From positions 36,456 to 100,455 of IMG/VR virus record IMGVR_UViG_3300034175_000062: a stretch of DNA of 64,000 nt. The stretch is one strand, 5' to 3'. This DNA comes from a virus. Below the pieces are notes generated by a model. That model ran no database searches and was not told the origin of the DNA. It saw nothing but the letters and a program-made list of their open reading frames with translations. How positions within the stretch are numbered: the first letter of the stretch is position 1; the number at the start of each line of letters is the position of its first letter. Of this stretch, positions 1,049 to 45,989 are shown one piece after another. The translations under genes and the position numbers were made by a program.

Positions 1049-1280
1049 GGTGATTTCCCTTCCGTTTTGGAGAACCCCTTGTTCCCCTTTGATGTTACCA
1101 TTCTATACAATACGCAATGCGTTGTAAACGGTTATTTTGATCGAGGCGCAAGTCTTTCTGGCCATCTGAGAGCGATCAACCATGCATGGCACGCTCCTAC
1201 CATGGGACTCAGATCACCTCTGACGCCCTCAACTTTCTCCTTTACAAAGTGGATGTATCGACTTAGAATGGGCCATCATC

Positions 1281-1699: not shown

Positions 1700-1837
1700 C
1701 GTTATCCTCCTTGCCTTACCCTCTTATTCTATCATGAGATCAATGCCATGTAAAGGGCTATTTTAGCGCTCGCAATCAAGGCCACGCCATCAATGCCTAT
1801 CTAGACGCGCAATGCGCCCGCTGGTCGATCGATCGAT

Positions 1838-2029
1838 TCAGCTGTTATACTGCACAGACTCGATACAGTCGGCCGCGATAGTGAGAGTATCGAAGGGGCT
1901 GTTGCTCTTCGATGTGTCCATGACGACCTCGTTGTGCTCCTGGTGATAGGCGCTGATGTGTCCACGATACTCGGCACCGCTCTTGGTCCGGATGATGCAC
2001 TGTAGATCGAGAAGTGGGTTCAAACGCAT
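1838..2029 (-). CDS. Small hypothetical protein (possible Sm/SH3-like barrel)
   Basis: 63 aa, GGGAG RBS, IRTKSG.EYRG.I pattern. Confidence 0.7.
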   Translation of the reverse strand: MRLNPLLDLQCIIRTKSGAEYRGHISAYHQEHNEVVMDTSKSNSPFDTLTIAADCIESVQYNS

Positions 2030-2591
2030 TGCGCGCTCCCTAGCAGAAAAGTGGAGGGATTTTGCTCCCTTGATACACCCATTCTAATACGATTCGCAGT
2101 GAGTGTAAAGGACTATTTTTGATGCGCAATGCGCCGGCTGGCGTTTGTTCGATCCTGCAAGGGCGGATGTATAGGGTAGTCCTCATTGCGCCCTACGGAA
2201 CTACATTGCAGAACATTGCATCTGCATGGCGATTTCAATAGCGAAATATCCCGGGTCACTGAGTTCTTGCGAACAGCTGGTCGAACGCCGGGTTGAGTGA
2301 GGTGGGGTGTTTCGATAACAGGGATTAAATCCATGTCGTTCAGACACCATTGTTTTCTGATCATATACATCGCCTATTGACGTTTGTATGTACGTTGCAT
2401 TAGAGTAATGCATCAGCCCTACGTCGTCTATAGGAATATTGTACACGCGTCTACGCAGCGATGGATGTTTATTCTCCTATCGCTTATTAGCTATTAGATA
2501 TCGTGTATGATCGTCTGAGAAATAGACGCGTAAGTATCGTTTCTTGTTATAGAAAGATTGATGGTACGTCATGAAGACGAGATGGATGATG

Positions 2592-2819
2592 TTATCCCGG
2601 ATGACGACGGCTCCATTCGAGGAAGCTGATCGCTCGAGCATGCGGGTTCTGGATCAGGAAGGAGTCGCCACGATTACGGTCGCGGAAGAAGCCCCAGTAC
2701 CAGTACCAGTTGAAGCGATCGCCCTTTATCTCGAAGATGTCGCTGATCGTGAAGTCGCCGGTATTGAGGTCACCCTGGAATGCGACGACACGGATCGGCT
2801 TGTCGTGTTCTACGATCAT
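2592..2819 (-). CDS. Hypothetical protein
   Basis: ATGA-coupled to 2816-3019. Confidence 0.65.
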   Translation of the reverse strand: MIVEHDKPIRVVAFQGDLNTGDFTISDIFEIKGDRFNWYWYWGFFRDRNRGDSFLIQNPHARAISFLEWSRRHPG

Positions 2820-3019
2820 GCTACGTACTCCCCGGCTGCTTTTCTAGCTTCGACGCCACACTGATAGCAGCGAGTCTCGTCGCCTACCCGGTGTGCGTTA
2901 GGACGCGATTGGTTCATCTTCCCCACGTGGTCGCATTCTTCGAAGGAGACGAGGACGACACTAGGCGTCGCTTCGACTTTCTTCACGGTGCGAAAGATTC
3001 CACGAGGGTCGATTGACAT
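2816..3019 (-). CDS. Small putative Zn-binding protein
   Basis: ECDH...CYQC; promoter and RBS upstream. Confidence 0.75.
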   Translation of the reverse strand: MSIDPRGIFRTVKKVEATPSVVLVSFEECDHVGKMNQSRPNAHRVGDETRCYQCGVEARKAAGEYVA

Positions 3020-3040
3020 TTCCTGTCTCCTTATACGCTC

Positions 3041-3111
3041 ATTCTATACAGTCGGCGGAAAACGTCAACAAGAATGTTACCCTTGACGTTTGTTTTTCTG
3101 CGACTTAGTAT
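3041..3111. promoter_or_regulatory. Back-to-back promoter hairpin
   Basis: Leftward TTGACG-N16-TAGAAT; rightward TTGACG(3083)-N17-TAGTAT(3106). Confidence 0.75.
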
Positions 3112-3542
3112 GTGAGCTGATACCAGACGTCGACTTCTTCGATGAGCTGGGCTGGAGTCTTATCATCGATCGTCGTTTTGAAGATGGGAGCCGGTCCTAC
3201 ACCCGGAACGTGGATCGCGCTGTTCGCAGCGTAGTCCAGTTCGATGTTGTAGAAGAACTTGTGGTCGTACTGCCAGCTCTGGTCGTCGTAGAAGTCTGGG
3301 ATCGTGTGGCCATCCTCGATACCGACGACTCGATTGCGCTCCTCACCGTCCGCCTTGTGGTCGTGTTCGACGATGATCTGACGCTCGTTGCGTGGCGCAG
3401 GGAGGGCACCAGCACTGCCCATGATCGACGGGAAGATGATGCCCCGCACGGCAGCGTTAAAGTGGTCGCCGAAGACGCCATGATGCTCGGAACCCTCGTG
3501 GGCGCCGATAGCGCCGATGAGTGCTGGATGGTGTGCCGTCAT
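3105..3542 (-). CDS. Hypothetical protein
   Basis: 145 aa, AGGAG RBS, cassette promoter. Confidence 0.8.
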   Translation of the reverse strand: MTAHHPALIGAIGAHEGSEHHGVFGDHFNAAVRGIIFPSIMGSAGALPAPRNERQIIVEHDHKADGEERNRVVGIEDGHTIPDFYDDQSWQYDHKFFYNIELDYAANSAIHVPGVGPAPIFKTTIDDKTPAQLIEEVDVWYQLTY

Positions 3543-3596
3543 ACCTGTCTCCTTATACGCCTATTCTATCACGTGACGGGAAATCGTCAAGGACTA

Positions 3597-3842
3597 TTAT
3601 GACTCCTGCCTAATGACGAACTGTCGATCGAAGCCATTCGCTGCCAGATAGAGGAAGTCTGACGACATGCCGCCATGTTCACCCCACTCGATCGCTGGAT
3701 CGAAGTCGACATAGCCAGCCTCTTCGGCCTGCTTCTGACAGTACTCGATCGCTTCGCCGGGCGTGTCGAAGGTCTTCACCTCGTCGATACGTACGCCGAC
3801 CTTCGGGTCAAGATCGATGTTGACAAATGTGTAGCGGCGCAC
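3597..3842 (-). CDS. Hypothetical protein
   Basis: 81 aa, in operon. Confidence 0.75.
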   Translation of the reverse strand: MRRYTFVNIDLDPKVGVRIDEVKTFDTPGEAIEYCQKQAEEAGYVDFDPAIEWGEHGGMSSDFLYLAANGFDRQFVIRQES

Positions 3843-3844
3843 TA

Positions 3845-4072
3845 CTATTCATCCTTCTCGATCAGGGCGTAGATCGAGTTCCGGGTCTCGGCGTACTGAA
3901 CGCCGTCCTCTTCGAACATCGATACGACCGGCGACGTGATGATATAGTCGCCAGTCTCTGCGCCGGCTGCTTCCTGGTTGAGCATCGCCTTACCGCGGAT
4001 GCGATGATCGGCGTAGTGGCGATACTCCTTCCAGTTACGGAGGACGTTGACGATCTTCTTGCCGTTACGCAT
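3845..4072 (-). CDS. Hypothetical phage protein
   Basis: I.TSPV...AETRNSIY.L motif seen in myophage early proteins. Confidence 0.8.
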   Translation of the reverse strand: MRNGKKIVNVLRNWKEYRHYADHRIRGKAMLNQEAAGAETGDYIITSPVVSMFEEDGVQYAETRNSIYALIEKDE

Positions 4073-4253
4073 CGCGCTTTTCCCCGTTGCTGATGATGTG
4101 GACGACCTGCCACTTCTCGGTGTCGAAGATGACGAATTCCGAGGTGCCGAACTCTTTCGACGTTGCCATCGCGAAGCGGACTGCGTTGGCGTAGAGGCCG
4201 AAGCGGCCCCAGAGGACGAAGGGATTGTCCTTACGATATACGACTAGATGCAT
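4065..4253 (-). CDS. Hypothetical protein
   Basis: AGGAG RBS after promoter. Confidence 0.75.
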   Translation of the reverse strand: MHLVVYRKDNPFVLWGRFGLYANAVRFAMATSKEFGTSEFVIFDTEKWQVVHIISNGEKRDA

Positions 4254-4306
4254 AACCGCTCTCCTTATACACCCATTCTAATACGATACGCCATCCTTGT
4301 AAAGGA

Positions 4307-4567
4307 CTATCTTAGCGCCTCCGTGATCATATTGTACCGACCGCGACCGGCCGCCTTGACCGTCACCTTGTACTTCTTGCCCTCGATCTCGAACGCGAAG
4401 CCGAACGGACGCTTGTACGCCTTGATGCATGGGACGCCGGCGAACCTGGTCGCGGCAGCACGATACTCCTCGATGTCCTCGTACTGTTTCTCGTCCTGCC
4501 AGCGCTCGTACAGGTTGAGGACCCACGGCGCCTTCATGATCTCTTCGACCTTCGCAGGGAATGGCAT
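4307..4567 (-). CDS. Hypothetical phage protein
   Basis: LYERWQDEK.YED..EY...KRPFGF motif; GGAG RBS. Confidence 0.8.
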   Translation of the reverse strand: MPFPAKVEEIMKAPWVLNLYERWQDEKQYEDIEEYRAAATRFAGVPCIKAYKRPFGFAFEIEGKKYKVTVKAAGRGRYNMITEALR

Positions 4568-4569
4568 CG

Positions 4570-4689
4570 TTATTCTCCGATCTCGAACAGGGTGTTGATG
4601 AAGTTGGTGACGATGTTCGTCTTCGAGTCGATGATCAGGAGGGCGATAGCCGCCGAACCAATTGCCATGACTACTAGAAGCGTTCCCAT
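4570..4689 (-). CDS. 39-aa membrane peptide (not in ORF track)
   Basis: MGTLLVVMAIGSAAIALLIID..., GAGGG RBS directly after promoter. Confidence 0.65.
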   Translation of the reverse strand: MGTLLVVMAIGSAAIALLIIDSKTNIVTNFINTLFEIGE

Positions 4690-4714
4690 TGCCTATTCCC
4701 TCATTTGATAACCC

Positions 4715-4785
4715 ATTCTATCACGATACAGAAAAACGTCAAGGTATATTTCAACCTTGACGTTTGCTGTAGTTCGTGTTAGTCT
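4715..4785. promoter_or_regulatory. Back-to-back promoter hairpin
   Basis: AAACGTCAAGGT...ACCTTGACGTTT; leftward TAGAAT, rightward TTGACG(4757)-N17-TAGTCT. Confidence 0.8.
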
Positions 4786-5021
4786 TCGGTCTTAGTGATC
4801 AAAAATGGAGGCTCGAAGTCGGTATGTTCCGGAACGTGGTCGTTCAACCAGGCGATGATCTCGTCAGACTCACCTGAGACTGACTGAGTGTCCTCGTCGT
4901 AGTCTGGGTGGTGTACGAGGTAGCCATTGAACTCGTCGTTCAGATATTCGACGATCTCGGACTCGTTGCTGAAGTCCTCTTCGAAGTCCATCTCGTTGTC
5001 GTTGTGGACGATCTTGACCAT
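4779..5021 (-). CDS. Very acidic small protein (candidate DNA mimic)
   Basis: 80 aa, 24 D/E vs 2 K and 0 R; AAGGAG RBS. Confidence 0.8.
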   Translation of the reverse strand: MVKIVHNDNEMDFEEDFSNESEIVEYLNDEFNGYLVHHPDYDEDTQSVSGESDEIIAWLNDHVPEHTDFEPPFLITKTED

Positions 5022-5080
5022 GCTACTATTCTCCTTACAGGAATATACTAACACGATAGCCAGAAATGTCAATAACTAAG

Positions 5081-5320
5081 TTAGTCGACCTCCATGAAGA
5101 AGGAGATGATGACCTTCTCGTCTGCAGGCCCGCTGTCGATGACCTCTCTGTCCATGAGCAGATCGACCTCGTCCTCCTGGAGTCCGAGTTCCCGGCGACA
5201 GTACCGAAGCGCTTCAGCGAATCGTGTGAAGACCTTGATCTCGGCCTTGTTGTAGCCGCCGCCGATCAGCTCGGGCTGGTGGTTGACCGTCTCCTGCGAG
5301 ACTACAGTGTACCTCTTCAT
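5081..5320 (-). CDS. Hypothetical protein
   Basis: ATGA-coupled to 5317-5673. Confidence 0.75.
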   Translation of the reverse strand: MKRYTVVSQETVNHQPELIGGGYNKAEIKVFTRFAEALRYCRRELGLQEDEVDLLMDREVIDSGPADEKVIISFFMEVD

Positions 5321-5673
5321 TTCGTCACCTTCTTTCTGAGTGGTCGTGGGATCACATTGCGCGGATTGTCGACGCGACAGGCGGTGCCACGACCACGATC
5401 GCTATCACGATTATATCGCCAGCCGGTGGTGTGCTCTTCGCCATCGAGCATGACCGTTTCTCCATCGCTGAAGCGGACACATTCGTATTTGCCGATCTCG
5501 ATGCAGGTGACCTCAGTGCCATCGAGGCACTTGTACGTCTCACCGAGAACGAATGGCTCGGTCGGGTTATCGCGACGATGATCGTGGTATGCTTTCGACA
5601 ACGCCATGTATGCGATATACGCATCGCCGGTGAGGGCTTCATCCTCGATGTAGAGCGTAACCGTAACCGTCAT
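5317..5673 (-). CDS. Hypothetical protein
   Basis: AGGAG RBS after promoter. Confidence 0.8.
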   Translation of the reverse strand: MTVTVTLYIEDEALTGDAYIAYMALSKAYHDHRRDNPTEPFVLGETYKCLDGTEVTCIEIGKYECVRFSDGETVMLDGEEHTTGWRYNRDSDRGRGTACRVDNPRNVIPRPLRKKVTK

Positions 5674-5743
5674 ACCCTGTCTCCTTATACACCCATTCTA
5701 TAACGATTGGGCCACATTGTAAAGGCATTTGTTTGCCTTGACA

Positions 5744-6118
5744 TTACCGCCAGATCGGATAGAGTGTATCGGTGAGCATGTTGATGTCCTCGAGGATCGT
5801 GTCTCGCTGGTGATCGACTTCTTCCAGTGCGCCTCTCTCAGATTGATCCAGAGTGCCCTCTTCATGCTTCACCATGAGCTCCTCCCAATACGGAGTAATC
5901 TCACTCAGAAGGGCATTCAGCTTATCGATTTTACCCTTTGCTTCCTTCTTAGCAGCAGCCTTATCCGCCCTCTCCTGCCTCTCCCAGATCTTCTTCGTCC
6001 TGGCTCGCTCTTGCTCGGCCTCACGTTGACGCTTGATAGCGCCCGAACGGAGTGCGACGAGGTTTGCGTTGGCCTGGCGCCGAAGCTGCACGACGTCTGT
6101 TTGCTTCCAGTACATCAC
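5744..6118 (-). CDS. Coiled-coil hypothetical protein
   Basis: 124 aa, charged and helical. Confidence 0.75.
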   Translation of the reverse strand: MMYWKQTDVVQLRRQANANLVALRSGAIKRQREAEQERARTKKIWERQERADKAAAKKEAKGKIDKLNALLSEITPYWEELMVKHEEGTLDQSERGALEEVDHQRDTILEDINMLTDTLYPIWR

Positions 6119-6402
6119 AGGCTCGCATCGATACGGTGGATGGTGTACGAATGAGCCCGCTTATCGGCCCGGTCGGTACGCTCGTGGTCGTCGATCTTCT
6201 TCTCGATCTCATCGAACGAGTTGCCGATGAACATGATGCCGTAGACGTAGCACCAGAAGAACGTCGTGTTGTCCGTCCGGAAGAAGAAGCCGCCCATCGT
6301 GCAGTGGTAGACGTACTTAGCGTCCTTATCGCCGTAGACGTGCTCCGGGATCATCGGCCAGCCGATACGTTCCGCGTTCTCTGGGGTGTTAAGATAGAGC
6401 AT
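6115..6402 (-). CDS. Hypothetical protein
   Basis: AGGAG RBS after promoter. Confidence 0.8.
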   Translation of the reverse strand: MLYLNTPENAERIGWPMIPEHVYGDKDAKYVYHCTMGGFFFRTDNTTFFWCYVYGIMFIGNSFDEIEKKIDDHERTDRADKRAHSYTIHRIDASL

Positions 6403-6459
6403 CTCAATCTCCTTATAAAGAGATACTATAACGATTGGGCAGAAACGTCAAGGGCTATT

Positions 6460-6927
6460 TTACCCTTGACAAATGAAGTTAGGGACATACTCCTTCTGGT
6501 AGAGGATCTTCTCGATGACTGCACGATCACGATTGACCCATTGCTGATTGCTCAGGACGAGATAGTACTCCTTCGTCTCTGGCAGGAACTGGATGAAGTA
6601 GCGATCGACGTACTTGTAGCCGGACGATGTATCGCCTTCATCGATGCCGTAGCACTCAGCGAAGTCCTTGTCGCTCTGATCGACGAGCTTCTCCGTCATC
6701 CTGAACTCCTCGAAGGAGAGCGGCGTCAGGCCGAAGGTCATCTGCATGATGTCGTAGAGCCGCGCCAGCGATGCGTTCGAGAGGGCGTGGACCTTATTGC
6801 GTGCTTCCTTCGCCATCAGATAGGCGTCGGTCTTCGGCATGCTGTCGGTCTTGTAGTAGAGCTGCAAGTCGTCGAACATGTTCTGGACTTTGATCGCCTT
6901 CTGATAGGTATCGAGTTCCTTACGCAT
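6460..6927 (-). CDS. Hypothetical protein
   Basis: MRKELD..., AGGAG RBS; start reassigned. Confidence 0.8.
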   Translation of the reverse strand: MRKELDTYQKAIKVQNMFDDLQLYYKTDSMPKTDAYLMAKEARNKVHALSNASLARLYDIMQMTFGLTPLSFEEFRMTEKLVDQSDKDFAECYGIDEGDTSSGYKYVDRYFIQFLPETKEYYLVLSNQQWVNRDRAVIEKILYQKEYVPNFICQG

Positions 6928-6955
6928 GGTGTTCTCCTTGCCTCTTGATACACCC

Positions 6956-7026
6956 ATTCTAATACGATACACAGAAACGTCAAGGCATATTTTTACCTTG
7001 ACGTTTGTTGTGGACTGTATTAGACC
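6956..7026. promoter_or_regulatory. Back-to-back promoter hairpin
   Basis: AAACGTCAAGG...CCTTGACGTTT; rightward TTGACG(6998)-N17-TAGACC. Confidence 0.7.
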
Positions 7027-7319
7027 GATTCAGCTAACCAAGTCTCAACGCGATGCACTAGCTCGAGGCGAGGGATCTTCGACCCGCCCATGATCACCAG
7101 CGTATTTTCTGGTCCGACCGGAGAGACGAACTGAGCGACATCAGCCTCATCGTCTACGTCGATCACACAGAAGCCGTGAGTGACGCCGCTATCGCCGGTA
7201 TAAGCCGGGATGCCGTTGTTCTCGGCTTCGGAGTCGAATGGGACGTCCTCTACATGCTCATAGACGAGCTTGCCGAGTGTAGCGTTCCAGGTGTAGCTGA
7301 AGATGGCGTGTAATCGCAT
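7020..7319 (-). CDS. Hypothetical protein
   Basis: 99 aa in operon. Confidence 0.75.
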   Translation of the reverse strand: MRLHAIFSYTWNATLGKLVYEHVEDVPFDSEAENNGIPAYTGDSGVTHGFCVIDVDDEADVAQFVSPVGPENTLVIMGGSKIPRLELVHRVETWLAESV

Positions 7320-7323
7320 GTCG

Positions 7324-7620
7324 TTATCCTATGATCTGGCCGGTGTCGGCGTCGATTGCCCGGACAGTTCCCGGAATGTTCTGCGAGGCGAGGTGGTCAG
7401 TCCTCCAACCAGCGTCCTTGTAGGAGCAGCGAATGACGCCGACCCAACGACCATCTGAGCCCCGTCGCTGGATCTCGGCCTTACGACCGCCTACGACCTG
7501 TGGCGTGTAACTGCCACGACTGCTCTTACCGAACAGCTTCTGGAACAGCATGACGACCATGGCGAGGACGAAACAGACGAGGCTTAGAGCAAAGTATTCC
7601 ATTGGACTTCTCCTTGACAT
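7324..7620 (-). CDS. Membrane-anchored hypothetical protein
   Basis: N-terminal hydrophobic helix. Confidence 0.75.
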   Translation of the reverse strand: MSRRSPMEYFALSLVCFVLAMVVMLFQKLFGKSSRGSYTPQVVGGRKAEIQRRGSDGRWVGVIRCSYKDAGWRTDHLASQNIPGTVRAIDADTGQIIG

Positions 7621-7626
7621 TCGTTC

Positions 7627-7911
7627 TCAGGCAGGATAGCCTATATTCCCATCAACCAGCTTGCTCTCATCGATCCCGTACATCATTTCGACGGGAATTC
7701 CGGTGATCGTCAGCTGATAGTCAGGCGAAGGAAATGCGATACGGAGTTGCGCCATCAGGGCGATCAGGTGACCGTGGTCGCTATTGGGAGTCAGCACCCG
7801 GGTGTAGTGATAGTACTGGGGTGCTGTGTTGTTCCAATTGCGACCCTTCGCTTTGGCCACGTTGACCTCGAAGTTCTTGATGAGCGGCAGCTTCTCCATG
7901 ATCTTCTCCAT
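7627..7911 (-). CDS. Hypothetical protein
   Basis: AAGGA RBS after promoter. Confidence 0.75.
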   Translation of the reverse strand: MEKIMEKLPLIKNFEVNVAKAKGRNWNNTAPQYYHYTRVLTPNSDHGHLIALMAQLRIAFPSPDYQLTITGIPVEMMYGIDESKLVDGNIGYPA

Positions 7912-7996
7912 CCGTCCTTATAGAGAGATACTAACACACCCGAGGGAAAATGTCAAATGGCGTGCCTACCATACGATAAGCACGCCATTCAATGGA

Positions 7997-8656
7997 TTAT
8001 GCGGTCGCGTAGATGACGGACCGCTTTCTCAGTCCGTACGCCATCATGCCGAAGCCGATCAGCATCATCGCCCAGGTCGAGGGTTCCGGGACAGCTGATG
8101 CGGTGTCGTAGACATATGTCACGGTGGACGAGATGTAATATCCCGTGCCGTGCAGATATGTCGGCTGCAGCGCGGTGCCGTCGAGTGACCCGAAGTTCAG
8201 CGAAGGAGCGCTATAGATGCTGATGAAGTCATCGTCACCCTTGCTTATGAACTGATCGATGAAGTCGCCGGTGAAGATCGATTTCACGTTGCCGCCGAAG
8301 CTGACGACCGCAGTCTCGGGATTCGCGAAATAGCTGTCAGCGATCTTGTCGATCTTGACAGATCCATAGAGCGAGTCGCCCATGGTCCCGACGATATGAA
8401 CCGCCGGACCCATGATCGGTTCATAAGCGCTGATCGATGGCATATCGAATGGTTGATATGCCGCGAACGAGAAGCTCCCGTCATAGTAGTTGTCGAAGCT
8501 GACGCTCTTCAGTGTCCCCAGCCTGCTGTCGAACTTCGACAGATAGACGGACGACGGTCCGTATTGGTATTCGGACTTCTTCATCTCCTCAGCCACAGCT
8601 GGTGCTGCGACCATGGAAAGCGAAGCGCAAATAATCAGGATGCCATGTCGAAACAT
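7997..8656 (-). CDS. PEPxxWA-CTERM sorting-domain surface protein (choice-of-anchor-E-like N-domain)
   Basis: Signal peptide MFRHGILIICASLSMVAAPAVA; KFDSRLGTLKSVSF; C-term VPEPSTWAMMLIGFGMMAYGLRKR. Confidence 0.92.
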   Translation of the reverse strand: MFRHGILIICASLSMVAAPAVAEEMKKSEYQYGPSSVYLSKFDSRLGTLKSVSFDNYYDGSFSFAAYQPFDMPSISAYEPIMGPAVHIVGTMGDSLYGSVKIDKIADSYFANPETAVVSFGGNVKSIFTGDFIDQFISKGDDDFISIYSAPSLNFGSLDGTALQPTYLHGTGYYISSTVTYVYDTASAVPEPSTWAMMLIGFGMMAYGLRKRSVIYATA

Positions 8657-8721
8657 AATATATTCCTTTCTTATCACCAATCTAGTTGGTATAGTAATAC
8701 TATAACGATTGAAGGAAAATG

Positions 8722-9198
8722 TCAAACGGCATTAATCTTAGCGTCTGCCTCACGAAGGAGTCTGATCTCTGTGTCACGCCGCCACGATGCTTCGCTGCGC
8801 TGCATGCTGTCCCACTTAACACGACCGTCAACGCGGACTGCCCAGCAATAGCCGTCGTCACCGTTCTCCTGACGCATCGTTACACGTCGGGTGAACTTGT
8901 CGGAGGTCGGCTTGATCGACGAGCGAAGATACTCGATACACGCTTTGATGATGGATGGCTGGGTCTCGAAGACGATGCGCTTATACGATCGGTCATAACG
9001 AAATGCCTCTGCCACGAAGTACGACTCAGTACGACGCTTACCAGGTGCCGCCGGCTTCAGCTTACGCTCAGCTACGACTTGGAACTTGCGCGATCCATAC
9101 TTCACACCGATATAGGCGATGTGTGTGGTGTCGTCCTTCTTGCTGGCGCCGAGGTTGGTGACGCCTTTGAAGGTGTATTCTGGCGTAGGTTTCGTCAT
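8722..9198 (-). CDS. Hypothetical phage protein
   Basis: 158 aa, GDDGYCWAV..DG motif. Confidence 0.8.
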   Translation of the reverse strand: MTKPTPEYTFKGVTNLGASKKDDTTHIAYIGVKYGSRKFQVVAERKLKPAAPGKRRTESYFVAEAFRYDRSYKRIVFETQPSIIKACIEYLRSSIKPTSDKFTRRVTMRQENGDDGYCWAVRVDGRVKWDSMQRSEASWRRDTEIRLLREADAKINAV

Positions 9199-9210
9199 GG
9201 CGTTATCTCT

Positions 9211-9525
9211 CTACCAGCGCTTGATCGCGAGGATGGACAGAACGCGACCGAGCAGGGTCGGACACGAGTTGAACGAGGTGAGGACCAGCGATCCACGACC
9301 AAAGCTGCCGAGCGGCGGATGGACTACGCCGACATCGTAGCCATTGCCTGCCTCGTTCTCGAGCCGGATGCGACCGCCGAAATTCTGCTTGACCACCACG
9401 CCCTCGTGGTGGATCGATGCGGGATAGAGGACGAACTTCTCGCCCTTATCGTTGACACCGGCTTCAGCGATGGACTCTACGATGGAGTCCCATTCGACGT
9501 CCGATACAGTGAATTCCTTGCTCAT
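9211..9525 (-). CDS. Hypothetical protein
   Basis: GGAG RBS after promoter; start reassigned. Confidence 0.75.
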   Translation of the reverse strand: MSKEFTVSDVEWDSIVESIAEAGVNDKGEKFVLYPASIHHEGVVVKQNFGGRIRLENEAGNGYDVGVVHPPLGSFGRGSLVLTSFNSCPTLLGRVLSILAIKRW

Positions 9526-9600
9526 GATGATCTCCATCCGTTGATATAGAGATACTAATACGTTTTGGCCTAGTTGTAAAGGCGAATATTCAATTGACAA

Positions 9601-9900
9601 ACAAGAACAGCCAGAGTATAACCCTGGCTGTTCCCGTGGACCTTCATTTTGTAGGCGTTGAGATCGAGTGAGTCTGCAGTTTGTCGCAGTGAGTCAGAGA
9701 TCTATTCGCCTGGGGTTTTGGCCCTATGTGCGTTGGCGCTTGACTGTTACGGTGTTAACGTCCTGCGTCGTAACAGTCTATGTCAGGACAATCCGGAAAT
9801 CCACGTCATGCTTATCGTCTCCGATCGCGCCGTTGGTATTGGAACGCCAGGCCATACTGATACTCTGTGGCCGTTACTGATACTCTATAGCCTTCCAATA
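9601..9900 (-). ncRNA. Candidate ~300-nt multi-domain structured RNA
   Basis: Promoter TTTACA-N17-TAGTAT (9934-9906), terminator 9605-9632, no credible ORF, nested stems and repeated loops. Confidence 0.7.
9605..9632 (-). terminator. Intrinsic terminator
   Basis: GAACAGCCAG/CTGGCTGTTC stem followed by U-rich tract on minus strand. Confidence 0.75.
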
Positions 9901-10037
9901 ACAAGATACTATAACGATTGGTCCTAGTTGTAAAGGACTATATTATGGCCGTCGTGGCTCGACTGCATGCGTGAACAGGAACCACGACGGCCTTCCGACG
10001 TCGGTCGGGTCGCTCCGTAAAGCCCGACGCCGAAACT

Positions 10038-10274
10038 CTAAAGCAATTCAACCTCGTTGATACGAAAGGACATGCAACTGCCAACGTGCGACAGCTCCTT
10101 CCGTATCGTCTCTTCATCGATTGGCTCACCACAGAAGTCGCCAGCCTCGAGAGCGCTCTTTACCGCCTTGTTGAGCGTGCCGCAGACACTCCAGATCGTC
10201 GTCTTGTCGTCAACGAGGTTCTCGACCTCTACGAGGAAGACGGTGGGTGCTTCTCTGGGTACGCCGAAAACCAT
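10038..10274 (-). CDS. Hypothetical protein
   Basis: TGATG-coupled ORF. Confidence 0.7.
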   Translation of the reverse strand: MVFGVPREAPTVFLVEVENLVDDKTTIWSVCGTLNKAVKSALEAGDFCGEPIDEETIRKELSHVGSCMSFRINEVELL

Positions 10275-10459
10275 CAGTCGTCGATCTTCAGTAGAGTGAC
10301 CTCGTTTAGAACGATGGCCATCTCACCATGAACGAAGTGACTGAATACGAAGAAACGACCCCGCCAGTCGATCACGCCAGGTGTAGCGATAGTCGCGGCT
10401 GGGACGTCAGTCTCGTGTACAGTCTGACCGTCCATCGTATTGAGGATCAAATGATACAT
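10274..10459 (-). CDS. Hypothetical protein behind structured leader
   Basis: MYHLILNTMDG...; start reassigned. Confidence 0.65.
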   Translation of the reverse strand: MYHLILNTMDGQTVHETDVPAATIATPGVIDWRGRFFVFSHFVHGEMAIVLNEVTLLKIDD

Positions 10460-10624
10460 AGTGTCTTCCATGCAGCTTATGAGGACGGTGGCGGGTACGA
10501 AACCGCAGAACCCGACAGCAAGAGGGGAGCCAGAAGCCGGGTCACCGTCCACATAAACTGTATTATGTGGCCATTCTATCACGTGATAGGAAAATGTCAA
10601 TGGCTATTTTAGTGCGCCTTGACA

Positions 10625-10750
10625 TTACCCGGGCGCCGGGATATTCTGCCGGTTCGGCTGGGTTTGGGTCATGTAAAGTTTGAGCGTGCCCTGCAGACGC
10701 TTCCGGGGAGTGGGCTGAGAGGTGATCTTCTGCTTCTTGGAGGTATTCAT
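10625..10750 (-). CDS. 41-aa basic peptide (not in ORF track)
   Basis: MNTSKKQKITSQPTPRKRLQGTLKLY..., GGAAGGAAG RBS. Confidence 0.6.
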   Translation of the reverse strand: MNTSKKQKITSQPTPRKRLQGTLKLYMTQTQPNRQNIPAPG

Positions 10751-10786
10751 TGTCTTCTTCCTTCCTTGCTCTGAGAGGGCATCAGC

Positions 10787-10984
10787 TTAAGCTGATGGAA
10801 TGCCGTTGTTCATTCGATAGAGGCGAACTTGTTCTAGGACATCGTCCTCGCTCTGGAGTTCCAGCAGTGCATCGCACGTCATCATGTCGGTGACGATCTC
10901 TGCATCAGTCATTCCCTCGAACGTATAGCCATTTTCAGCTGCGTTCTCAAAGGCTTCCTTAACGAGTTCGGCGAGCGTTATCAT
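10787..10984 (-). CDS. Small acidic protein
   Basis: AGGAG RBS after promoter. Confidence 0.8.
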   Translation of the reverse strand: MITLAELVKEAFENAAENGYTFEGMTDAEIVTDMMTCDALLELQSEDDVLEQVRLYRMNNGIPSA

Positions 10985-11033
10985 GATGATCTCCTATCCA
11001 ATAAAGAGATACTACCACGATATGATCAAATTG

Positions 11034-11219
11034 TCAATGACGATGTTTGATCTCTCGAATGAGTACGCAGGCCGAGAGGATGACGGCCAGGGCGAAGAAC
11101 AGCATGCCAGCCGCTCCGAACCAGTTGGCCAGACTCTCGCTACCGTGTGCTAGGAACCCCGACGACATGCTGATGCAGACGAAGCTCACAACCACGGATA
11201 CGATCAGTATGAAGAGCAT
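11034..11219 (-). CDS. Two-TM membrane protein
   Basis: Two hydrophobic helices. Confidence 0.75.
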   Translation of the reverse strand: MLFILIVSVVVSFVCISMSSGFLAHGSESLANWFGAAGMLFFALAVILSACVLIREIKHRH

Positions 11220-11533
11220 CAGCTGGCCCTCTCCCTCATCTGCTCGATCTCTGCCAGGCCGATGACTCGTGCCGTTCCGTTCTCGATCTTGGTCTTCAAC
11301 TCGGCTAGCTCGTTCGTAACGCGCTTGTCGAGGATCTCCACGATCCGGTCGGAAGTCGCACCAGCCAGCATGCTCTTGATCTCGTCTTCCGACGTCTGCT
11401 TAGCCAGCTGGAGAGCGTGCATGCATGCAGTGACGGTCAGAAAGTTTACGGCGTTGGGCCGTTGGATGAACGATTCAGACGCCGTCCGCATCTCGTTGGT
11501 GCAGATCATGATGGCGTGCTTCTTCATTCCCAT
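11219..11533 (-). CDS. Hypothetical protein
   Basis: GGGAG RBS after promoter. Confidence 0.8.
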   Translation of the reverse strand: MGMKKHAIMICTNEMRTASESFIQRPNAVNFLTVTACMHALQLAKQTSEDEIKSMLAGATSDRIVEILDKRVTNELAELKTKIENGTARVIGLAEIEQMRERAS

Positions 11534-11583
11534 TCGTAGTCTCCCTTATTTGATGACCCATTCTATCACGTGATAGGAAATTG

Positions 11584-12084
11584 TCAATCACTTTGTTCTT
11601 CGTCTGTCTCCGGCTTATAGTTTTCCCAGTCGATCTTAGGGAGGACCATGACGTAGAATACGCCCTCGGCTTGATCGAGCCCCTTCGTGATCGTGATCAG
11701 GTTGACATCGATCCCAGCGACCTCACATTCTGCACGAATGCGTTTGTCGAGCTGATGGATGATGGTTCGTTCATCGTGCCAGTAGAAGACGCGGTTGTGC
11801 CACAACTGGATGATGGCTGGAGCGTTCTCCTTCGAGGTAAACGAGTCGCTCATCTCCCACGACTTGTAGATCTCGGCGTCCATGTGCTCCTGGATGAGCG
11901 TGGCGTCGCCGTTGTCGAACAGCTGCGCCTTATAAGGCTGGTCGTGCTCCGTCGTCCAGATCAGCCAATAGCCACCGTTCATCTCGAACTTGAAGAAGAT
12001 CGACTCGCGGATGTCCCAGCTGTTGATAAACTCATCGAGACCCGGCAGCGTTGTGGTCCGAAATGCACCGTTCATATCGAGCAT
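11584..12084 (-). CDS. Hypothetical protein
   Basis: GGGAG RBS; start reassigned. Confidence 0.8.
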   Translation of the reverse strand: MLDMNGAFRTTTLPGLDEFINSWDIRESIFFKFEMNGGYWLIWTTEHDQPYKAQLFDNGDATLIQEHMDAEIYKSWEMSDSFTSKENAPAIIQLWHNRVFYWHDERTIIHQLDKRIRAECEVAGIDVNLITITKGLDQAEGVFYVMVLPKIDWENYKPETDEEQSD

Positions 12085-12109
12085 GGTGATCTCCCTATCC
12101 AATAAGAAG

Positions 12110-12181
12110 ATACTAATACAAACAAGAAAAAACGTCAAGGCATATTTCAGCCTTGACGTTTGATGTAGTTCGGATTAGGCT
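12110..12181. promoter_or_regulatory. Back-to-back promoter hairpin
   Basis: AAACGTCAAGGC...GCCTTGACGTTT; rightward TTGACG(12153)-N17-TAGGCT. Confidence 0.8.
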
Positions 12182-12441
12182 AGCTGAAGTTGCTGGGTGC
12201 TATCCCAGAGCTTTCTCTCGAGTTCCTCGAGTCCCGAGCCGTCGTATGCAGCAATGGGGATCTTGTTGATCGTAACGATATAGAACTCTGGGCCGATCTC
12301 CTCGATCCAGCCCACGATACGATCTTGTGGGTCGCGATATATGAAGCCGATAGGTGTAACACCCGGGACATCTACATCGCGGCCTAGATTGGTTGTGTAT
12401 CGTCTAAGAGCGATAAACGCATCGAAGTCGAACATAGCCAT
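12175..12441 (-). CDS. Hypothetical protein
   Basis: GGAG RBS. Confidence 0.75.
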   Translation of the reverse strand: MAMFDFDAFIALRRYTTNLGRDVDVPGVTPIGFIYRDPQDRIVGWIEEIGPEFYIVTINKIPIAAYDGSGLEELERKLWDSTQQLQLA

Positions 12442-12474
12442 GACATTTCTCCGTCCCCCCGCATAGGTGGACGT

Positions 12475-12651
12475 TTAGAGGGACTTGTACTTCTCGCTGC
12501 CGTTCGAGCGAGCGAAGCGATCAAATACGCTCTTCGCATTGTCAGCCGAGGTAGCGCCGGACTTGAACTTGGACTTGCCGGTCGACATGGGAACCTTCAT
12601 AACACGAACAGGTTTACCGTCGCGACCGATGTTGGTAATAGGCATGCTCAT
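12475..12651 (-). CDS. 58-aa basic protein (not in ORF track)
   Basis: MSMPITNIGRDGKPVRVMKVPMSTGKSKFKSG..., GGAG RBS after promoter. Confidence 0.7.
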   Translation of the reverse strand: MSMPITNIGRDGKPVRVMKVPMSTGKSKFKSGATSADNAKSVFDRFARSNGSEKYKSL

Positions 12652-12715
12652 ATTTCTCTCTCCATGCTGAGGGTTTCATCTTAACACAGGATAAGGCAGA
12701 TGTAAACCCACTTTG

Positions 12716-12904
12716 TTAAACGACAGGAAAATAATTTACCTGCCAAGAACGGCCAGACCGTGATATAATGGCATACTCGGTCGGCTCGTTGTGAGCGTCT
12801 AGGAGGGCGCCTGGCTTTCTATATAGCAGCCCGCCGTCCTTGACGTCGTAATGGATCGTGTAACCAGACTCGATAACGAGCTTGATGGCGTTCTTCTTCG
12901 TCAT
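12716..12904 (-). CDS. Hypothetical protein
   Basis: TGATG-coupled. Confidence 0.7.
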   Translation of the reverse strand: MTKKNAIKLVIESGYTIHYDVKDGGLLYRKPGALLDAHNEPTEYAIISRSGRSWQVNYFPVV

Positions 12905-13155
12905 CAGCTGATTGGCTGTTTGTACGTGAAGATGCCCTGCTTGTTCTCGACCTCATAGATCACGTTGTCGATTGTGACAGACTGCGCAACGCGGTTCTCG
13001 TCTTCACTGATCGACTGTAGGTTACCGAGAAGCGAACCCTGGATGTACCCGTCTGGGTCTTCCTTGTTGAAGTCGAGGATTCGAATAAGGTCGTTGTGTA
13101 TCTCGTAAGTCATCGTCCAAACGTACGATGCGATGACCATTGCTGCTTTCTTCAA
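12904..13155 (-). CDS. Hypothetical protein
   Basis: In operon; start uncertain. Confidence 0.6.
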   Translation of the reverse strand: MKKAAMVIASYVWTMTYEIHNDLIRILDFNKEDPDGYIQGSLLGNLQSISEDENRVAQSVTIDNVIYEVENKQGIFTYKQPIS

Positions 13156-13415
13156 ACTATTGTTCCATTTGCTTTACACACGAACTCGAGCATGACGCGA
13201 TGTGCTACGTCACCAGGAAGATCGCTAAATCGATTATGATACTCCGCGCCATCGGCGTCGAAGAAGGTGAAGTGGAACTCGGTGGGATGACGATTCGATG
13301 GTATCACTTTACCAGTACGAAACGGACGCTTGAGATGATCCCATGGTCCTGTCTTCGATGGTATGAAACAGGCTCGACGATCTAGTAAGAAACGCGTCGG
13401 CACTTTAATCGTCAT
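13152..13415 (-). CDS. Hypothetical protein
   Basis: MTIKVPTRF..., overlaps stop of ArfA-like ORF. Confidence 0.7.
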   Translation of the reverse strand: MTIKVPTRFLLDRRACFIPSKTGPWDHLKRPFRTGKVIPSNRHPTEFHFTFFDADGAEYHNRFSDLPGDVAHRVMLEFVCKANGTIV

Positions 13416-13539
13416 AGTCGAGTTCTCTCTTGAACGCACGACGGTTATAGGAGGAACCCTTGCCTTTGAACAGGGGCTCGGAACGAGGTTGGAATTGACC
13501 CTGGGAGAGGCCGGCTGCGATGACGTTACGCTTCTTCAT
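13405..13539 (-). CDS. arfA: ArfA-like alternative ribosome-rescue factor (44 aa, not in ORF track)
   Basis: MKKRNVIAAGLSQGQFQPRSEPLFKGKGSSYNRRAFK matches ArfA core N.I.A.L....F..R.E...KGKGSY.R; AAAGGA RBS, own promoter. Confidence 0.7.
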   Translation of the reverse strand: MKKRNVIAAGLSQGQFQPRSEPLFKGKGSSYNRRAFKRELDYDD

Positions 13540-13609
13540 GGTGTGTTCCTTTCGAAGCTTAGTCTAACACAGCCTCCTCAAATTGTCAACCGTTGACATT
13601 CAGTTGTAT

Positions 13610-13885
13610 TTAGCTTATCTTCAACCCACGGTCAAGACGGGCTGCAATAGCCTTCGACCGTACGTAGACCTTAGATGCTGTAGTGAAGGCGTAGTTGCTT
13701 CGCTGGGCGACTAGGACACCATCTCGTGGGCCTCGTGGTCGGTACCACCAGTGGTCCTTATCGAGCGTCCATCGACCGTACTTTTCGCCGGGATTGAACA
13801 GAGAACCGTGACCATCACGCACGTTCTTCTCACGACCAAGGCGTAGTGCCCGTTGGTCCATCGTCTCGTTCTGTATGTCGGACAT
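13610..13885 (-). CDS. Basic hypothetical protein behind structured leader
   Basis: MSDIQNET..., GGAG RBS; start reassigned. Confidence 0.7.
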   Translation of the reverse strand: MSDIQNETMDQRALRLGREKNVRDGHGSLFNPGEKYGRWTLDKDHWWYRPRGPRDGVLVAQRSNYAFTTASKVYVRSKAIAARLDRGLKIS

Positions 13886-14017
13886 TCCATGCTCCGTAGG
13901 GTGTGGGCGCCGACGAGATTGGAAAGGGGTTCGTCGGCGCCCACTGCGGTATAGCATGGAAGGAGTTCAACCGCCCATGCATTATAACACGCAGATGGGA
14001 AAATGTCAAGGGCTATT

Positions 14018-14239
14018 TTAACCCTCGACTAGCTCTCTTGCTTCGATGTTTGTTTGTGCGAGCACCTTAACCTCGGCGAGGCGGAGCATGCTGGCAGCAC
14101 CACCCGGCCAGGACTTTACGACCGCTTCGAACCGCTTGATCGCGTTCTCAGGAGTGTCACGGAATCGGCTACCAGTCGACTCCCAGCCAATCGGGTGTAC
14201 GTACGTTTCGATGACATACGAGACACAGCCTTTCGCCAT
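14018..14239 (-). CDS. Hypothetical protein
   Basis: GGGAG RBS. Confidence 0.75.
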   Translation of the reverse strand: MAKGCVSYVIETYVHPIGWESTGSRFRDTPENAIKRFEAVVKSWPGGAASMLRLAEVKVLAQTNIEARELVEG

Positions 14240-14240
14240 G

Positions 14241-14519
14241 TTAGCGAGCTCCCTTATGTTCGAACCAAGCCTTAGCGATGAAGTTCTCTTCGAGGTAGGT
14301 CACGATCTTCTTCTCGGCTTCATCGTCCTCTGCGTTAGCATGAAGCTCCTCCCACGTCTTACCGCAGGCAAGCTGGAAGCCGATGATATCGTACCAGTAC
14401 TCGACCCACCGCTTTGGATGAACCTCGACACCGAGCATAGCACACAGCTCTTTGTCCACCTCTTCGAGGGGAACGACCTGTCCGGTACGCTTGGATGTTA
14501 GACTAAAGCAGTTCGGCAT
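14241..14519 (-). CDS. Hypothetical phage protein
   Basis: AGGAGG RBS after promoter. Confidence 0.85.
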   Translation of the reverse strand: MPNCFSLTSKRTGQVVPLEEVDKELCAMLGVEVHPKRWVEYWYDIIGFQLACGKTWEELHANAEDDEAEKKIVTYLEENFIAKAWFEHKGAR

Positions 14520-14578
14520 AGCCGTTTCCTCCTATCCGTTACTATGATACTAACACGATAGGAGGAAAACGTCAAGGG

Positions 14579-14959
14579 CTATTTCATACGCCAGACCATC
14601 AGGTACTTCTGCTCGAGATATCGAGTGTACCAGTGGTACTTGCCCTTCGCGTTGATCGCATAGAGCTGTTGGCGGAATCGTTGAGCCTCGTGGGGAGGCA
14701 TCTCGTAGATCGAATTGGCTGCGATCGGGAGCTCCATAGCATGAGCTATGATGTTCGCATATCCCTTAATCACGCTTGGCTGAGGTGAGCTGATGCCCTG
14801 CTCAGAGGGTGAAGCTGATTGGCTGGGAGATTCTACCATAGGAGAATACCACCTCTCGGACAAGGTCTTATCCTTGGTCCGAGCTAGTCGCTTGGCGAGG
14901 AGACGCTTGGGCTCCTTGATCCGCCGGTCAGCCACTCGATTCTGAAGTCTTAACGTCAT
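14579..14959 (-). CDS. Hypothetical protein
   Basis: GGAGG RBS after promoter. Confidence 0.75.
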   Translation of the reverse strand: MTLRLQNRVADRRIKEPKRLLAKRLARTKDKTLSERWYSPMVESPSQSASPSEQGISSPQPSVIKGYANIIAHAMELPIAANSIYEMPPHEAQRFRQQLYAINAKGKYHWYTRYLEQKYLMVWRMK

Positions 14960-15025
14960 ACATCCTCCATGCTACGTATAACCTATTTTATACACATGAC
15001 TGGATAAAGTAAAGGCCTTATTACC

Positions 15026-45958: not shown

Positions 45959-45989
45959 AATGTATTTATACCCTAAGTTGGTACAAATG

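What the first reader, a model, noticed from the sequence alone, without database searches (positions are those of the whole stretch)
9601..9900. A cassette whose cargo is RNA: ~300-nt multi-domain ncRNA with repeated loops and a pseudoknot
Seen (minus-strand transcript): full promoter and terminator but only a 25-codon RBS-less ORF. Domain 1 is closed by UAUUGGAA/UUCCAAUA and displays AGAGUAUCAGUA twice (9886-9875, 9866-9855) between GGCY stems. Domain 2 is closed by GGCGC/GCGCC and holds a 10-bp GACUGUUACG/CGUAACAGUC hairpin whose loop CAGGAC can pair with upstream GUCCUG (9789-9784), an H-type pseudoknot. Domain 3 is closed by AGGCG/CGCCU and repeats GACUCACU twice (9695-9688, 9674-9667). 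An antisense promoter (9594) lies at its terminator. Inference: a multivalent decoy RNA, such as an antitoxin mimic, RNA anti-CRISPR or protein/sRNA sponge.
Basis: partly seen in the sequence, partly recalled or inferred. Interest (0 to 1): 0.85.

Follow-up and report, generated by a model that had tools for sequence, protein, structure and literature searches.

The report
ORF-less early phage cassette, candidate ncRNA
One unit in this uncultured soil-crust phage's row of early-gene cassettes has a normal promoter and a strong terminator but no gene inside, so it probably makes a folded RNA of about 300 bases; no relative or expression data could be obtained, so whether that RNA does anything, let alone acts as a decoy, remains open.

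Summary
The described sequence features are real. On the minus strand an early-type promoter (9934-9906) and a 17-bp terminator hairpin (9638-9602) bound about 300 nt with no credible ORF. Of 27 promoters of this type, this is the only one with no ORF of 30 aa or more starting within 120 nt. Codon usage is non-coding in all candidate frames.

The two pairs of close direct repeats (12 nt at 20-nt spacing, 8 nt at 21-nt spacing) exceed chance (p about 0.001-0.002). The evidence for a multi-domain structured RNA is weaker:
- Without the terminator the body folds at z = -1.96, which 22% of neighbouring windows match.
- The Domain 2 closing helix has probability 0.36.
- The 6-bp pseudoknot is at chance level.
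- The antisense promoter lacks the key -10 T.

No Rfam family matched, and I found no homologue in phage, viral, metagenome or genome collections. No covariation or RNA data could be obtained; the one known relative's contig could not be fetched. Tests for an antitoxin mimic, CRISPR-repeat mimic or CsrA-type sponge were negative or impossible.

Best reading: an orphan early phage ncRNA gene (about 0.4). The main rival is a leftover of PeSL-type cassette shuffling (about 0.3). The scan has noted similar ORF-less cassettes in other phages. Interest is modest.

The parts
9945..10035 (-). Two very stable hairpins after the stop of the upstream gene (10038-10274). They are the likely 3' end or attenuator of the upstream operon and the stem-loop part of a PeSL-like cassette junction.
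   Evidence: Fold of 9940-10045(-): -53.2 kcal/mol, z = -5.55, no U-tract. Inverted repeat I4.
9906..9945 (-). Early sigma-70-type promoter: AT-rich/TAGTCC upstream module, -35 TTTACA (9934-9929), 17-nt spacer, -10 TAGTAT (9911-9906).
   Evidence: Listed. 80% identical over 41 nt to the promoter of the next gene (D1). Aligned with 22 other early promoters.
9837..9900 (-). Domain 1. It starts at the predicted transcription start (about A9899). The closing helix AUUGGAA/UUCCAAU and nested GCUA/UGGC and GGCCA/UGGCC stems hold the two 12-mers.
   Evidence: Pair probabilities 0.78-1.0. Domain z = -2.3. The first 12 transcribed bases are shared with the coding cassettes at 12138 and 11037.
9855..9886 (-). 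Tandem 20-nt units carrying AGAGUAUCAGUA twice (9886-9875 and 9866-9855). Both copies are predicted single-stranded.
   Evidence: Exact copies, unique in the 100-kb record. Unpaired probability 0.90 and 0.81. A repeat this long and close has p about 0.001.
9735..9831 (-). Domain 2: a weakly supported closing helix GGCGC/GCGCC around a perfect 10-bp hairpin (9778-9742) with a 17-nt loop.
   Evidence: Hairpin probability 1.0, closing helix 0.36. Domain z = -2.0. A perfect 10-bp hairpin is found in 13% of local windows.
9653..9711 (-). Domain 3: a 59-nt imperfect hairpin (5+5+3+5 bp) with GACUCACU on each arm (9695-9688 and 9674-9667).
   Evidence: Pair probabilities 0.92-1.0. z = -3.2. The 8-mers are about half paired.
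9596..9638 (-). Intrinsic terminator: 17-bp stem with 3 G-U pairs, 3-nt loop, then UUGUUUGU. Predicted 3' end near 9597.
   Evidence: -26.8 kcal/mol, z = -7.4 on this strand against -5.0 on the other. No T-run on the + strand.
9552..9580 (-). Promoter of the next cassette, which drives the conserved 104-aa gene at 9525-9211. It lies about 20 nt after the terminator, so the downstream gene does not depend on read-through.
   Evidence: The gene has a 64%-identical homologue, P0002.

Best explanation
This is an independent, ORF-less early transcription unit of a T4-like uncultured phage. Host sigma-70 RNA polymerase would start at about A9899 from a promoter of the phage's early family and stop at the strong terminator near 9597. 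The product would be a non-coding RNA of about 300 nt, base-paired from its first nucleotide and ending in a terminator hairpin, both features that favour stability.

The RNA most likely acts in trans through its duplicated, predicted single-stranded motifs: 2 x AGAGUAUCAGUA in the 5' domain and 2 x GACUCACU in the 3' domain. These could bind two copies or a dimer of a partner, either protein or RNA.

Shown from sequence: the promoter, the terminator, the absence of coding capacity, the uniqueness among the cassettes, and repeats beyond chance. Inferred: that a discrete stable RNA accumulates, that the predicted domains form, and that the repeats are the functional surface. The partner is unknown.
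For: - The promoter belongs to the early family and is listed by the scan.
- The terminator is a 17-bp stem, z = -7.4, and strand-specific through G-U pairs.
- No ORF of 30 aa or more follows this promoter, whereas 26 of 26 other promoters of the type have one.
- No minus-strand small ORF has a GGAG/AGGA/GAGG/AAGG motif upstream.
- Codon-usage scores are negative for every candidate ORF.
- Every frame carries stops: 4 in the best frame against 2.2 in shuffles.
- Neither the + strand ORF nor a read-through of minus frame 0 has a genuine protein relative, in 5.8 and 1.84 billion sequences.
- The direct repeats are non-random and predicted unpaired at 0.8-0.9.
- The D1, D3 and 10-bp helices have pair probabilities of 0.8-1.0, and each domain has z of -2.0 to -3.2.
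- The 5' helix starts at the predicted +1.
- The same sequence recurs without substitution in contigs of two other biocrust runs.
Against: - No relative with DNA could be obtained, so there is no covariation and no evidence of conservation.
- There are no RNA data.
- Body folding energy is unexceptional for this region: z = -1.96, matched by 22% of local windows.
- The reverse strand folds equally well.
- No target or mimic of the repeat motifs was found in the phage record or in 185,579 genomes.
- No Rfam family matched.
- The first 12 transcribed bases equal the 5' UTR of coding cassettes and diverge exactly where their Shine-Dalgarno begins. This fits a recombination scar as well as a designed RNA.
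Confidence: 0.4

Rival explanations
1. It is a non-functional leftover of cassette shuffling. The early region is an array of PeSL-like promoter/stem-loop cassettes that recombine with each other. A crossover between the -10 and the Shine-Dalgarno, or decay of a small ORFan, left a promoter and terminator around sequence that is transcribed but has no role.
For: - The region is a dense array of about 23 near-identical early promoters with hairpins. This is the architecture described for T4-type phages, where crossovers between the -10 and the SD were observed (PMC2839356; PMC4122927).
- The unit shares 'cttgttattgga' after the -10 with the cassettes at 12138 and 11037, and diverges where their SD starts.
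- There is a weak residual coding-like signal in minus frame 0 over 9870-9720, borderline against shuffles (p = 0.05-0.19).
- Body folding is not exceptional.
- The unit has no homologue anywhere.
Against: - A read-through of frame 0 finds no genuine protein relative among 1.84 billion representatives.
- Stops are more frequent than in shuffles in every frame.
- The two pairs of close direct repeats and the nested helices around them are not expected of a decayed ORF.
- A strong dedicated terminator and an intact promoter are retained.
- It is the only such unit among 27.
Confidence: 0.3
2. It is a DNA-level element rather than an RNA gene. The direct repeats at 20- and 21-bp spacing (two helical turns) and the 10-bp palindrome are binding sites for a phage or host DNA-binding protein. 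[quoted passage not shown]
For: - The 12-nt repeats lie exactly 20 bp apart and the 8-nt repeats 21 bp apart.
- The repeats are non-random.
- The phage is T4-like.
- T4 oriE has evenly spaced 12-nt iterons and depends on an early promoter (PMC3016281).
- Both strands fold equally, so the symmetry is not strand-specific.
Against: - Each repeat has only two copies, and no degenerate extra copies were found.
- No AT-rich unwinding stretch exists apart from the promoters.
- There is no GC-skew change or switch of transcription direction nearby.
- The neighbours match no replication-protein family.
- Nested inverted repeats bracketing each repeat pair, and a terminator, are unexplained by this reading.
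Confidence: 0.1
3. It is a cis-acting control region: a long leader whose terminator is conditional (attenuator, or processive antitermination or sigma-dependent pausing at the -10-like TATCAGTAT elements), tuning read-through into the downstream genes.
For: - Promoter, about 240-nt leader, terminator, then genes is the layout of attenuators and of the lambdoid PR'-tR' unit (my own knowledge).
- The second 12-mer unit resembles the spacer and -10 of the next promoter, 15 of 19 (p about 0.01-0.025).
- CAGAGUAU in that repeat is complementary to 8 nt of the terminator top (I1).
Against: - The downstream gene has its own full promoter 20 nt after the terminator.
- No adjacent antiterminator alternative exists; the 8-nt complement is 220 nt away and at chance level.
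- No riboswitch or leader family matches.
- No Q- or N-like gene was identified nearby.
Confidence: 0.07
4. It encodes a micro-protein: the 25-codon ORF at 9855-9778 (MAWRS...), whose AUG ends the second 12-mer.
For: - Its codon score without start and stop codons is +0.12 per codon. That lies within the range of real genes and is rare for off-frames of genes.
- AGAG lies 7 nt upstream of the AUG.
Against: - There is no GGAG, AGGA or GAGG, unlike most cassettes.
- The AUG is partly inside a stem with probability 0.99.
- For 25-codon windows the score is not significant against shuffles (p = 0.14-0.19).
- About 180 nt of untranslated structured RNA would follow it.
- At 25 aa the ORF is below the protein search tools' length limits, so it was not searched on its own. 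The 72-aa read-through that begins with it found no genuine relative.
Confidence: 0.05

Closest known systems
PeSL (promoter-early stem-loop) cassettes of T4-type phages (Arbiol et al. 2010, PMC2839356; Comeau et al. 2014, PMC4122927)
   Same: A hyperplastic early region built from repeated strong sigma-70-like promoters with an AT-rich upstream part and adjacent stable stem-loops. Each drives one to a few small orphan genes. The unit studied here has such a promoter and an upstream double hairpin.
   Different: PeSLs end in a Shine-Dalgarno and the start codon of an ORFan. This unit has neither, and instead carries about 240 nt of non-coding, repeat-bearing sequence and its own strong terminator. 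The host is probably alphaproteobacterial, judging from the alpha-type tmRNA, not enterobacterial. Recombination between these cassettes was not tested here.
Stand-alone phage non-coding RNAs with their own promoter and terminator, such as T4 RNAs C and D or early sRNAs mapped in Pseudomonas phages (PMC9163698 and PMC8244752, listed but not read in full)
   Same: A short independent transcription unit in a virulent phage that yields a structured RNA of a few hundred nt with no ORF.
   Different: There is no sequence or Rfam relationship to any of them. Here the RNA is only predicted, with no transcript mapping and no relatives.
Type III antitoxin RNAs and the phage pseudo-ToxI mimic (ToxI/ToxN; my own knowledge)
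   Same: Promoter, tandem direct repeats, terminator; a phage could carry a mimic.
   Different: The repeats here are 20-nt units in about two copies rather than 34-45-nt units. No ToxN/AbiQ-like gene is adjacent. No array with the same core was found in genomes.
T4 oriE (early promoter plus evenly spaced 12-nt iterons; PMC3016281)
   Same: A T4-like phage, an early-type promoter, and 12-nt direct repeats at regular spacing.
   Different: There are two copies, not a cluster. A terminator and nested helices are present. There is no repE-like neighbour and no AT-rich unwinding element.

Membership tests
PeSL-type early cassette (T4-type phages) | Strong sigma-70-like promoter with an AT-rich upstream region, repeated many times in a hyperplastic early region | tested here: met
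   27 minus-strand promoters match TT[GT]AC[AG]-16/17-TAnnAT, 23 of them within 1100-15000 and aligned. They share an upstream AAAATAG(C/T)CC-like module.
PeSL-type early cassette (T4-type phages) | Stable stem-loop next to the promoter that acts as terminator or attenuator of upstream transcription | tested here: met
   Double hairpin at 10035-9945 directly upstream of the promoter, z = -5.55. Function was not assayed.
PeSL-type early cassette (T4-type phages) | Shine-Dalgarno and start codon of an ORFan at the 3' end of the element | tested here: not met
   No ORF of 30 aa or more within 120 nt and no SD-preceded start. The UTR diverges from the coding cassettes at the SD position.
Type III toxin-antitoxin antitoxin RNA or phage pseudo-antitoxin | Tandem direct repeats of about 34-45 nt, two or more copies, before a terminator | tested here: not met
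   The repeat units are 20 nt (2.2 copies) and 21 nt (2 copies).
Type III toxin-antitoxin antitoxin RNA or phage pseudo-antitoxin | Adjacent ToxN/AbiQ/CptN-type endoribonuclease, or sequence likeness to a host antitoxin array | tested here: not met
   There are no PADLOC, Pfam or PHROG hits for the neighbours. The loop-pair pattern in 185,579 genomes gives only microsatellites. The true host genome is unknown, so likeness to its arrays remains untested.
RNA anti-CRISPR (solitary CRISPR-repeat mimic) | Sequence and structure likeness to a CRISPR repeat | tested here: inconclusive
   No Rfam CRISPR-DR family matches at E up to 10. The host's own repeats are unknown and could not be compared.
CsrB/RsmZ-type protein sponge | Many GGA motifs displayed in hairpin loops | tested here: not met
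   6 GGA against 5.2 expected. Only one lies in a hairpin loop.
6S RNA or other catalogued RNA families | Match to the family covariance model | tested here: not met
   Rfam 15 finds nothing here at gathering thresholds on the whole window. At E up to 10 on 9400-10100 there are only sub-threshold miRNA/snoRNA noise hits on the hairpins. No tRNA or tmRNA was found by ARAGORN.
Iteron-type origin (T4 oriE-like) | Cluster of evenly spaced direct repeats plus an early promoter, with origin activity | tested here: inconclusive
   An early promoter is present. There are only two copies of each repeat and no degenerate extras. There is no AT-rich DUE. Origin activity cannot be tested with these tools.

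The most novel reading that the evidence does not exclude
The unit makes an abundant early decoy RNA of a new family. Its paired displays of identical single-stranded motifs (two AGAGUAUCAGUA loops, two GACUCACU bulges) would capture a dimeric host RNA-binding protein, a defence sensor or a host sRNA in the first minutes of infection. That would make it an RNA-only host-takeover factor sitting among protein ORFans in a shuffling cassette array.
Probability: 0.12. Interest if true: 0.7.

Novelty: new member of a known kind. Interest (0 to 1): 0.3.

Why it matters
If the RNA is real and functional, cassette arrays in T4-like phages of soil alphaproteobacteria would be shown to shuffle RNA genes as well as protein ORFans. 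It would also add an orphan RNA to the short list of early phage ncRNAs with a possible host-takeover or anti-defence role. If it is a shuffling scar, it is a clean example of how promoter/terminator cassettes can create transcribed non-coding DNA, which is raw material for new RNAs or genes. At present it is a reasonable candidate in an uncultured phage, with no conservation or expression evidence.

Tried and rejected
Searches for relatives (all negative):
- blastn of 9300-10300 against 50,697 phage records found nothing.
- The flanking proteins found nothing in IMG/VR.
P0002 and the two-sequence alignment found nothing in metagenome contigs or viral contigs.
- A baseplate protein found only a 6.3-kb relative fragment. 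Among named phages the best match is 28% identity to Caulobacter phage Cr30.

Pattern and mimic searches:
- The loop-pair pattern in IMG/VR gave one chance hit in a giant-virus coding repeat.
- The hairpin pattern gave none.
- The loop-pair pattern in 185,579 genomes gave five unrelated 12-nt microsatellites.

Sequencing runs:
- Six DNA holders were found, from biocrust and soil, and no RNA holder is listed.
- Laying four runs gave low-depth contigs of the same phage with no informative variation. One 1-nt deletion at 9712 appears in one depth-2 contig.

Coding tests:
- Pfam found nothing on the + strand ORFs.
- The word-index search of the 89-aa + ORF found no candidate.
- A read-through of minus frame 0 gave only a spurious hit to an 88-aa-repeat protein.
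- Recoding was considered and rejected, because the stops are a mix of TAA, TAG and TGA.

Ideas dropped:
- That the 12-mer units derive from the UTR/SD/start module: alignment is not significant (p = 0.12-0.5).
- That GAUCUC in Domain 3 acts as an anti-SD for GGAGAUCA: this was post hoc, the motif is predicted paired, and it is at chance level.
- That other ORF-less cassettes exist at 14009 and 5072: both hold ORFs that my crude gene caller missed.

Not attempted: a single-sequence covariance model searched against distant T4-like phages, which I judged too weak to be informative.

Full report
**Context.** The window is bases 36456-100455 of a 100,455-bp IMG/VR virus record that CheckV rates 58% complete.
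- The phage has T4-type tail and baseplate genes, a DNA ligase and NAMPT.
- Its baseplate protein is only 28% identical to the best named phage, Caulobacter phage Cr30.
- It carries an alphaproteobacterial two-piece tmRNA.
- The same DNA occurs in biocrust and soil metagenomes.
- Window 1100-15000 is an early region. About 23 near-identical sigma-70-type promoters on the minus strand each drive one to a few small orphan genes. This matches the PeSL cassette architecture described for T4-type phages (PMC2839356; PMC4122927).

**The observation.**
- The unit starts with a promoter, TTTACA-17-TAGTAT at 9934-9906. The promoter carries the family's upstream module and is 80% identical over 41 nt to the promoter of the next gene.
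- The most likely start is A9899, seven bases after the -10.
- The unit ends in a 17-bp hairpin at 9638-9602 followed by UUGUUUGU. The hairpin has -26.8 kcal/mol, z = -7.4, and three G-U pairs that make it weaker on the other strand.
- About 100 nt upstream of the promoter, after the stop of gene 10038-10274, lie two very stable hairpins (z = -5.55). The unit is therefore insulated on both sides.

**No coding capacity.**
- The minus strand has no ORF over 30 aa here.
- No minus-strand small ORF has a GGAG/AGGA/GAGG/AAGG motif upstream.
- A codon-usage log-odds model trained on 37 long ORFs of this phage gives +0.09 to +0.30 per codon for the called early genes.
- The same model gives negative values for every candidate ORF here, including the + strand 89-aa ORF at -0.21.
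- For each of the 27 promoters of the family, I asked for an ORF of at least 30 aa starting 5-120 nt after the -10. Twenty-six have one, usually 20-28 nt downstream with GGAG. The 9934 promoter is the only one with none.
- Two other apparent gaps, at 14009 and 5072, hold real ORFs that my crude caller had missed.
- The + ORF has no relative in the 5.8-billion-protein collection, where no protein was called even on the phage's own contig.
- Minus frame 0 shows a faint coding-like signal that is not significant against shuffles (p = 0.05-0.19). Reading it through its three stops and searching 1.84 billion representatives gave only a spurious cumulative hit to a repeat protein.
- Every frame carries more stops than shuffled sequence, 4 against 2.2 in the best frame.

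**Structure.** The full unit folds at -107.6 kcal/mol with z = -4.8, but the terminator supplies most of that.
- The 261-nt body has z = -1.96. In a control tiling of 40 windows across the same early region, 22% reach that value.
- The single domains have z of -2.3, -2.0 and -3.2, and their reverse complements fold as well. Thermodynamics alone therefore does not single out this RNA or its strand.
- In the partition function, the Domain 1 closing helix, its inner stems, the 10-bp hairpin and the two outer helices of Domain 3 have probabilities of 0.8-1.0.
- The Domain 2 closing helix has only 0.36.
- The two 12-mers are unpaired at 0.90 and 0.81, and the 8-mers are about half paired.
- The proposed pseudoknot is a single 6-bp complement next to a 17-nt loop. 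I estimate about 0.15 by chance, and its 5' arm is mostly paired otherwise.
- The proposed antisense promoter has TATAAC, without the critical last T, and is not listed by the scan.

**What stands out is the pair of close direct repeats.**
- A 12-nt exact repeat within 40 nt occurs in 0.1% of dinucleotide shuffles and in none of 112 real local windows.
- Two separate close repeats of 8 nt or more occur in 0.2% of shuffles and 0.9% of local windows.
- The spacings are 20 and 21 nt.
- The 12-mer occurs nowhere else in the record, and near-matches are at chance frequency. The same holds for the 8-mer context.

**Origin of the unit.** The first 12 transcribed bases are those of the coding cassettes at 12138 and 11037, and the similarity ends exactly where their Shine-Dalgarno begins. 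This is what a crossover between cassettes, as documented for PeSLs between the -10 and the SD, would leave.
- The second 12-mer unit resembles the spacer and -10 of the neighbouring promoter at 15 of 19 positions, a marginal result (p about 0.01-0.025).
- A resemblance to the UTR/SD/start module is not significant.

**Comparative and expression evidence could not be obtained.**
- No similar DNA was found in 50,697 phage records.
- The flanking proteins, and the single 64% homologue P0002, found nothing in IMG/VR or the JGI metagenome contigs.
- Reads or contigs from four further runs are the same phage at low depth, with no substitutions in the body.
- No RNA run is listed.

**Tests of the decoy ideas.**
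- Rfam gives nothing here at gathering thresholds. At E up to 10 it gives only sub-threshold miRNA/snoRNA noise hits on the hairpins. No 6S, CRISPR-DR, Y-RNA-like or riboswitch family is among them.
- ARAGORN finds nothing.
- The neighbours match no Pfam, PHROG or PADLOC family relevant to toxins or defence.
- The tandem-loop pattern finds only microsatellites in 185,579 genomes and one coding repeat in IMG/VR.
- GGA is not enriched.
- The repeats are too short and too few for a type III antitoxin.

**Verdict.** The unit is a genuine ORF-less promoter-to-terminator cassette, unique in its array, with non-random internal repeats.
- The most likely reading is an orphan early non-coding RNA of about 300 nt that acts through its duplicated exposed motifs (0.4).
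- The main rival is a transcribed scar of cassette shuffling (0.3).
- The other rivals are a DNA-level repeat element such as an oriE-like origin (0.1; PMC3016281), a cis-acting leader (0.07) and a 25-aa micro-protein (0.05).

The scan has logged similar ORF-less cassettes in other phages, so the kind is known. This would be a new, so far relative-less member.

Noticed in passing
window 45647-45997 (-): The phage record carries a full-length alphaproteobacterial two-piece (permuted) tmRNA gene: Rfam RF01849, 101 bits, E = 2e-26. ARAGORN does not call it. It points to an alphaproteobacterial host and to phage interference with ribosome rescue.
   Followed up: partly
window 45087-45155 (-): A weak tRNA match in Rfam (32.2 bits against a gathering score of 29) about 500 nt from the tmRNA. 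ARAGORN does not find it.
   Followed up: no
window 1100-15000 (-): About 23 early promoters share an upstream AAAATAG(C/T)CC module, -35 TT(G/T)AC(A/G), -10 TAG(A/T)AT and two classes of 5' UTR (gggtgtataaggag... and ctctttattggatagg...). This is a PeSL-like shuffling array in a phage far from the enterobacterial T4 relatives where PeSLs were described.
   Followed up: partly
window 7997-8725 (-): An early cassette gene encodes a protein with a C-terminal PEP-CTERM sorting motif (Pfam PF07589, E = 9e-9). This is a host-type exosortase substrate expressed from a phage early promoter.
   Followed up: no
window 9945-10035 (-): Two adjacent, very stable hairpins (-53 kcal/mol, z = -5.55) without a U-tract lie between the upstream gene's stop and the promoter of the studied unit. 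They could be an attenuator, an RNase III site or a recombination stem-loop.
   Followed up: partly
window 40753-42162 (-) and 28083-29264 (+): The phage encodes a nicotinamide phosphoribosyltransferase (phrog_448, E = 9e-151) and an ATP-dependent DNA ligase (phrog_114).
   Followed up: no
window 9211-9525 (-): The 104-aa product of the downstream gene is found letter for letter on a 135,750-bp contig in the protein collection (P0001), so a longer assembly of this phage exists than the 100-kb record. Its only homologue (P0002, 64% identity) keeps an invariant C-terminal LVLTSFNSC...IKRW stretch.
   Followed up: partly
window 9851-9867 and 9612-9628: The second 12-mer unit (CAGAGUAU...) is complementary over 8 nt to the loop and 3' arm of the unit's own terminator. 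This is at chance level for a 300-nt RNA, but it is the only long-range pairing that involves the repeats.
   Followed up: partly
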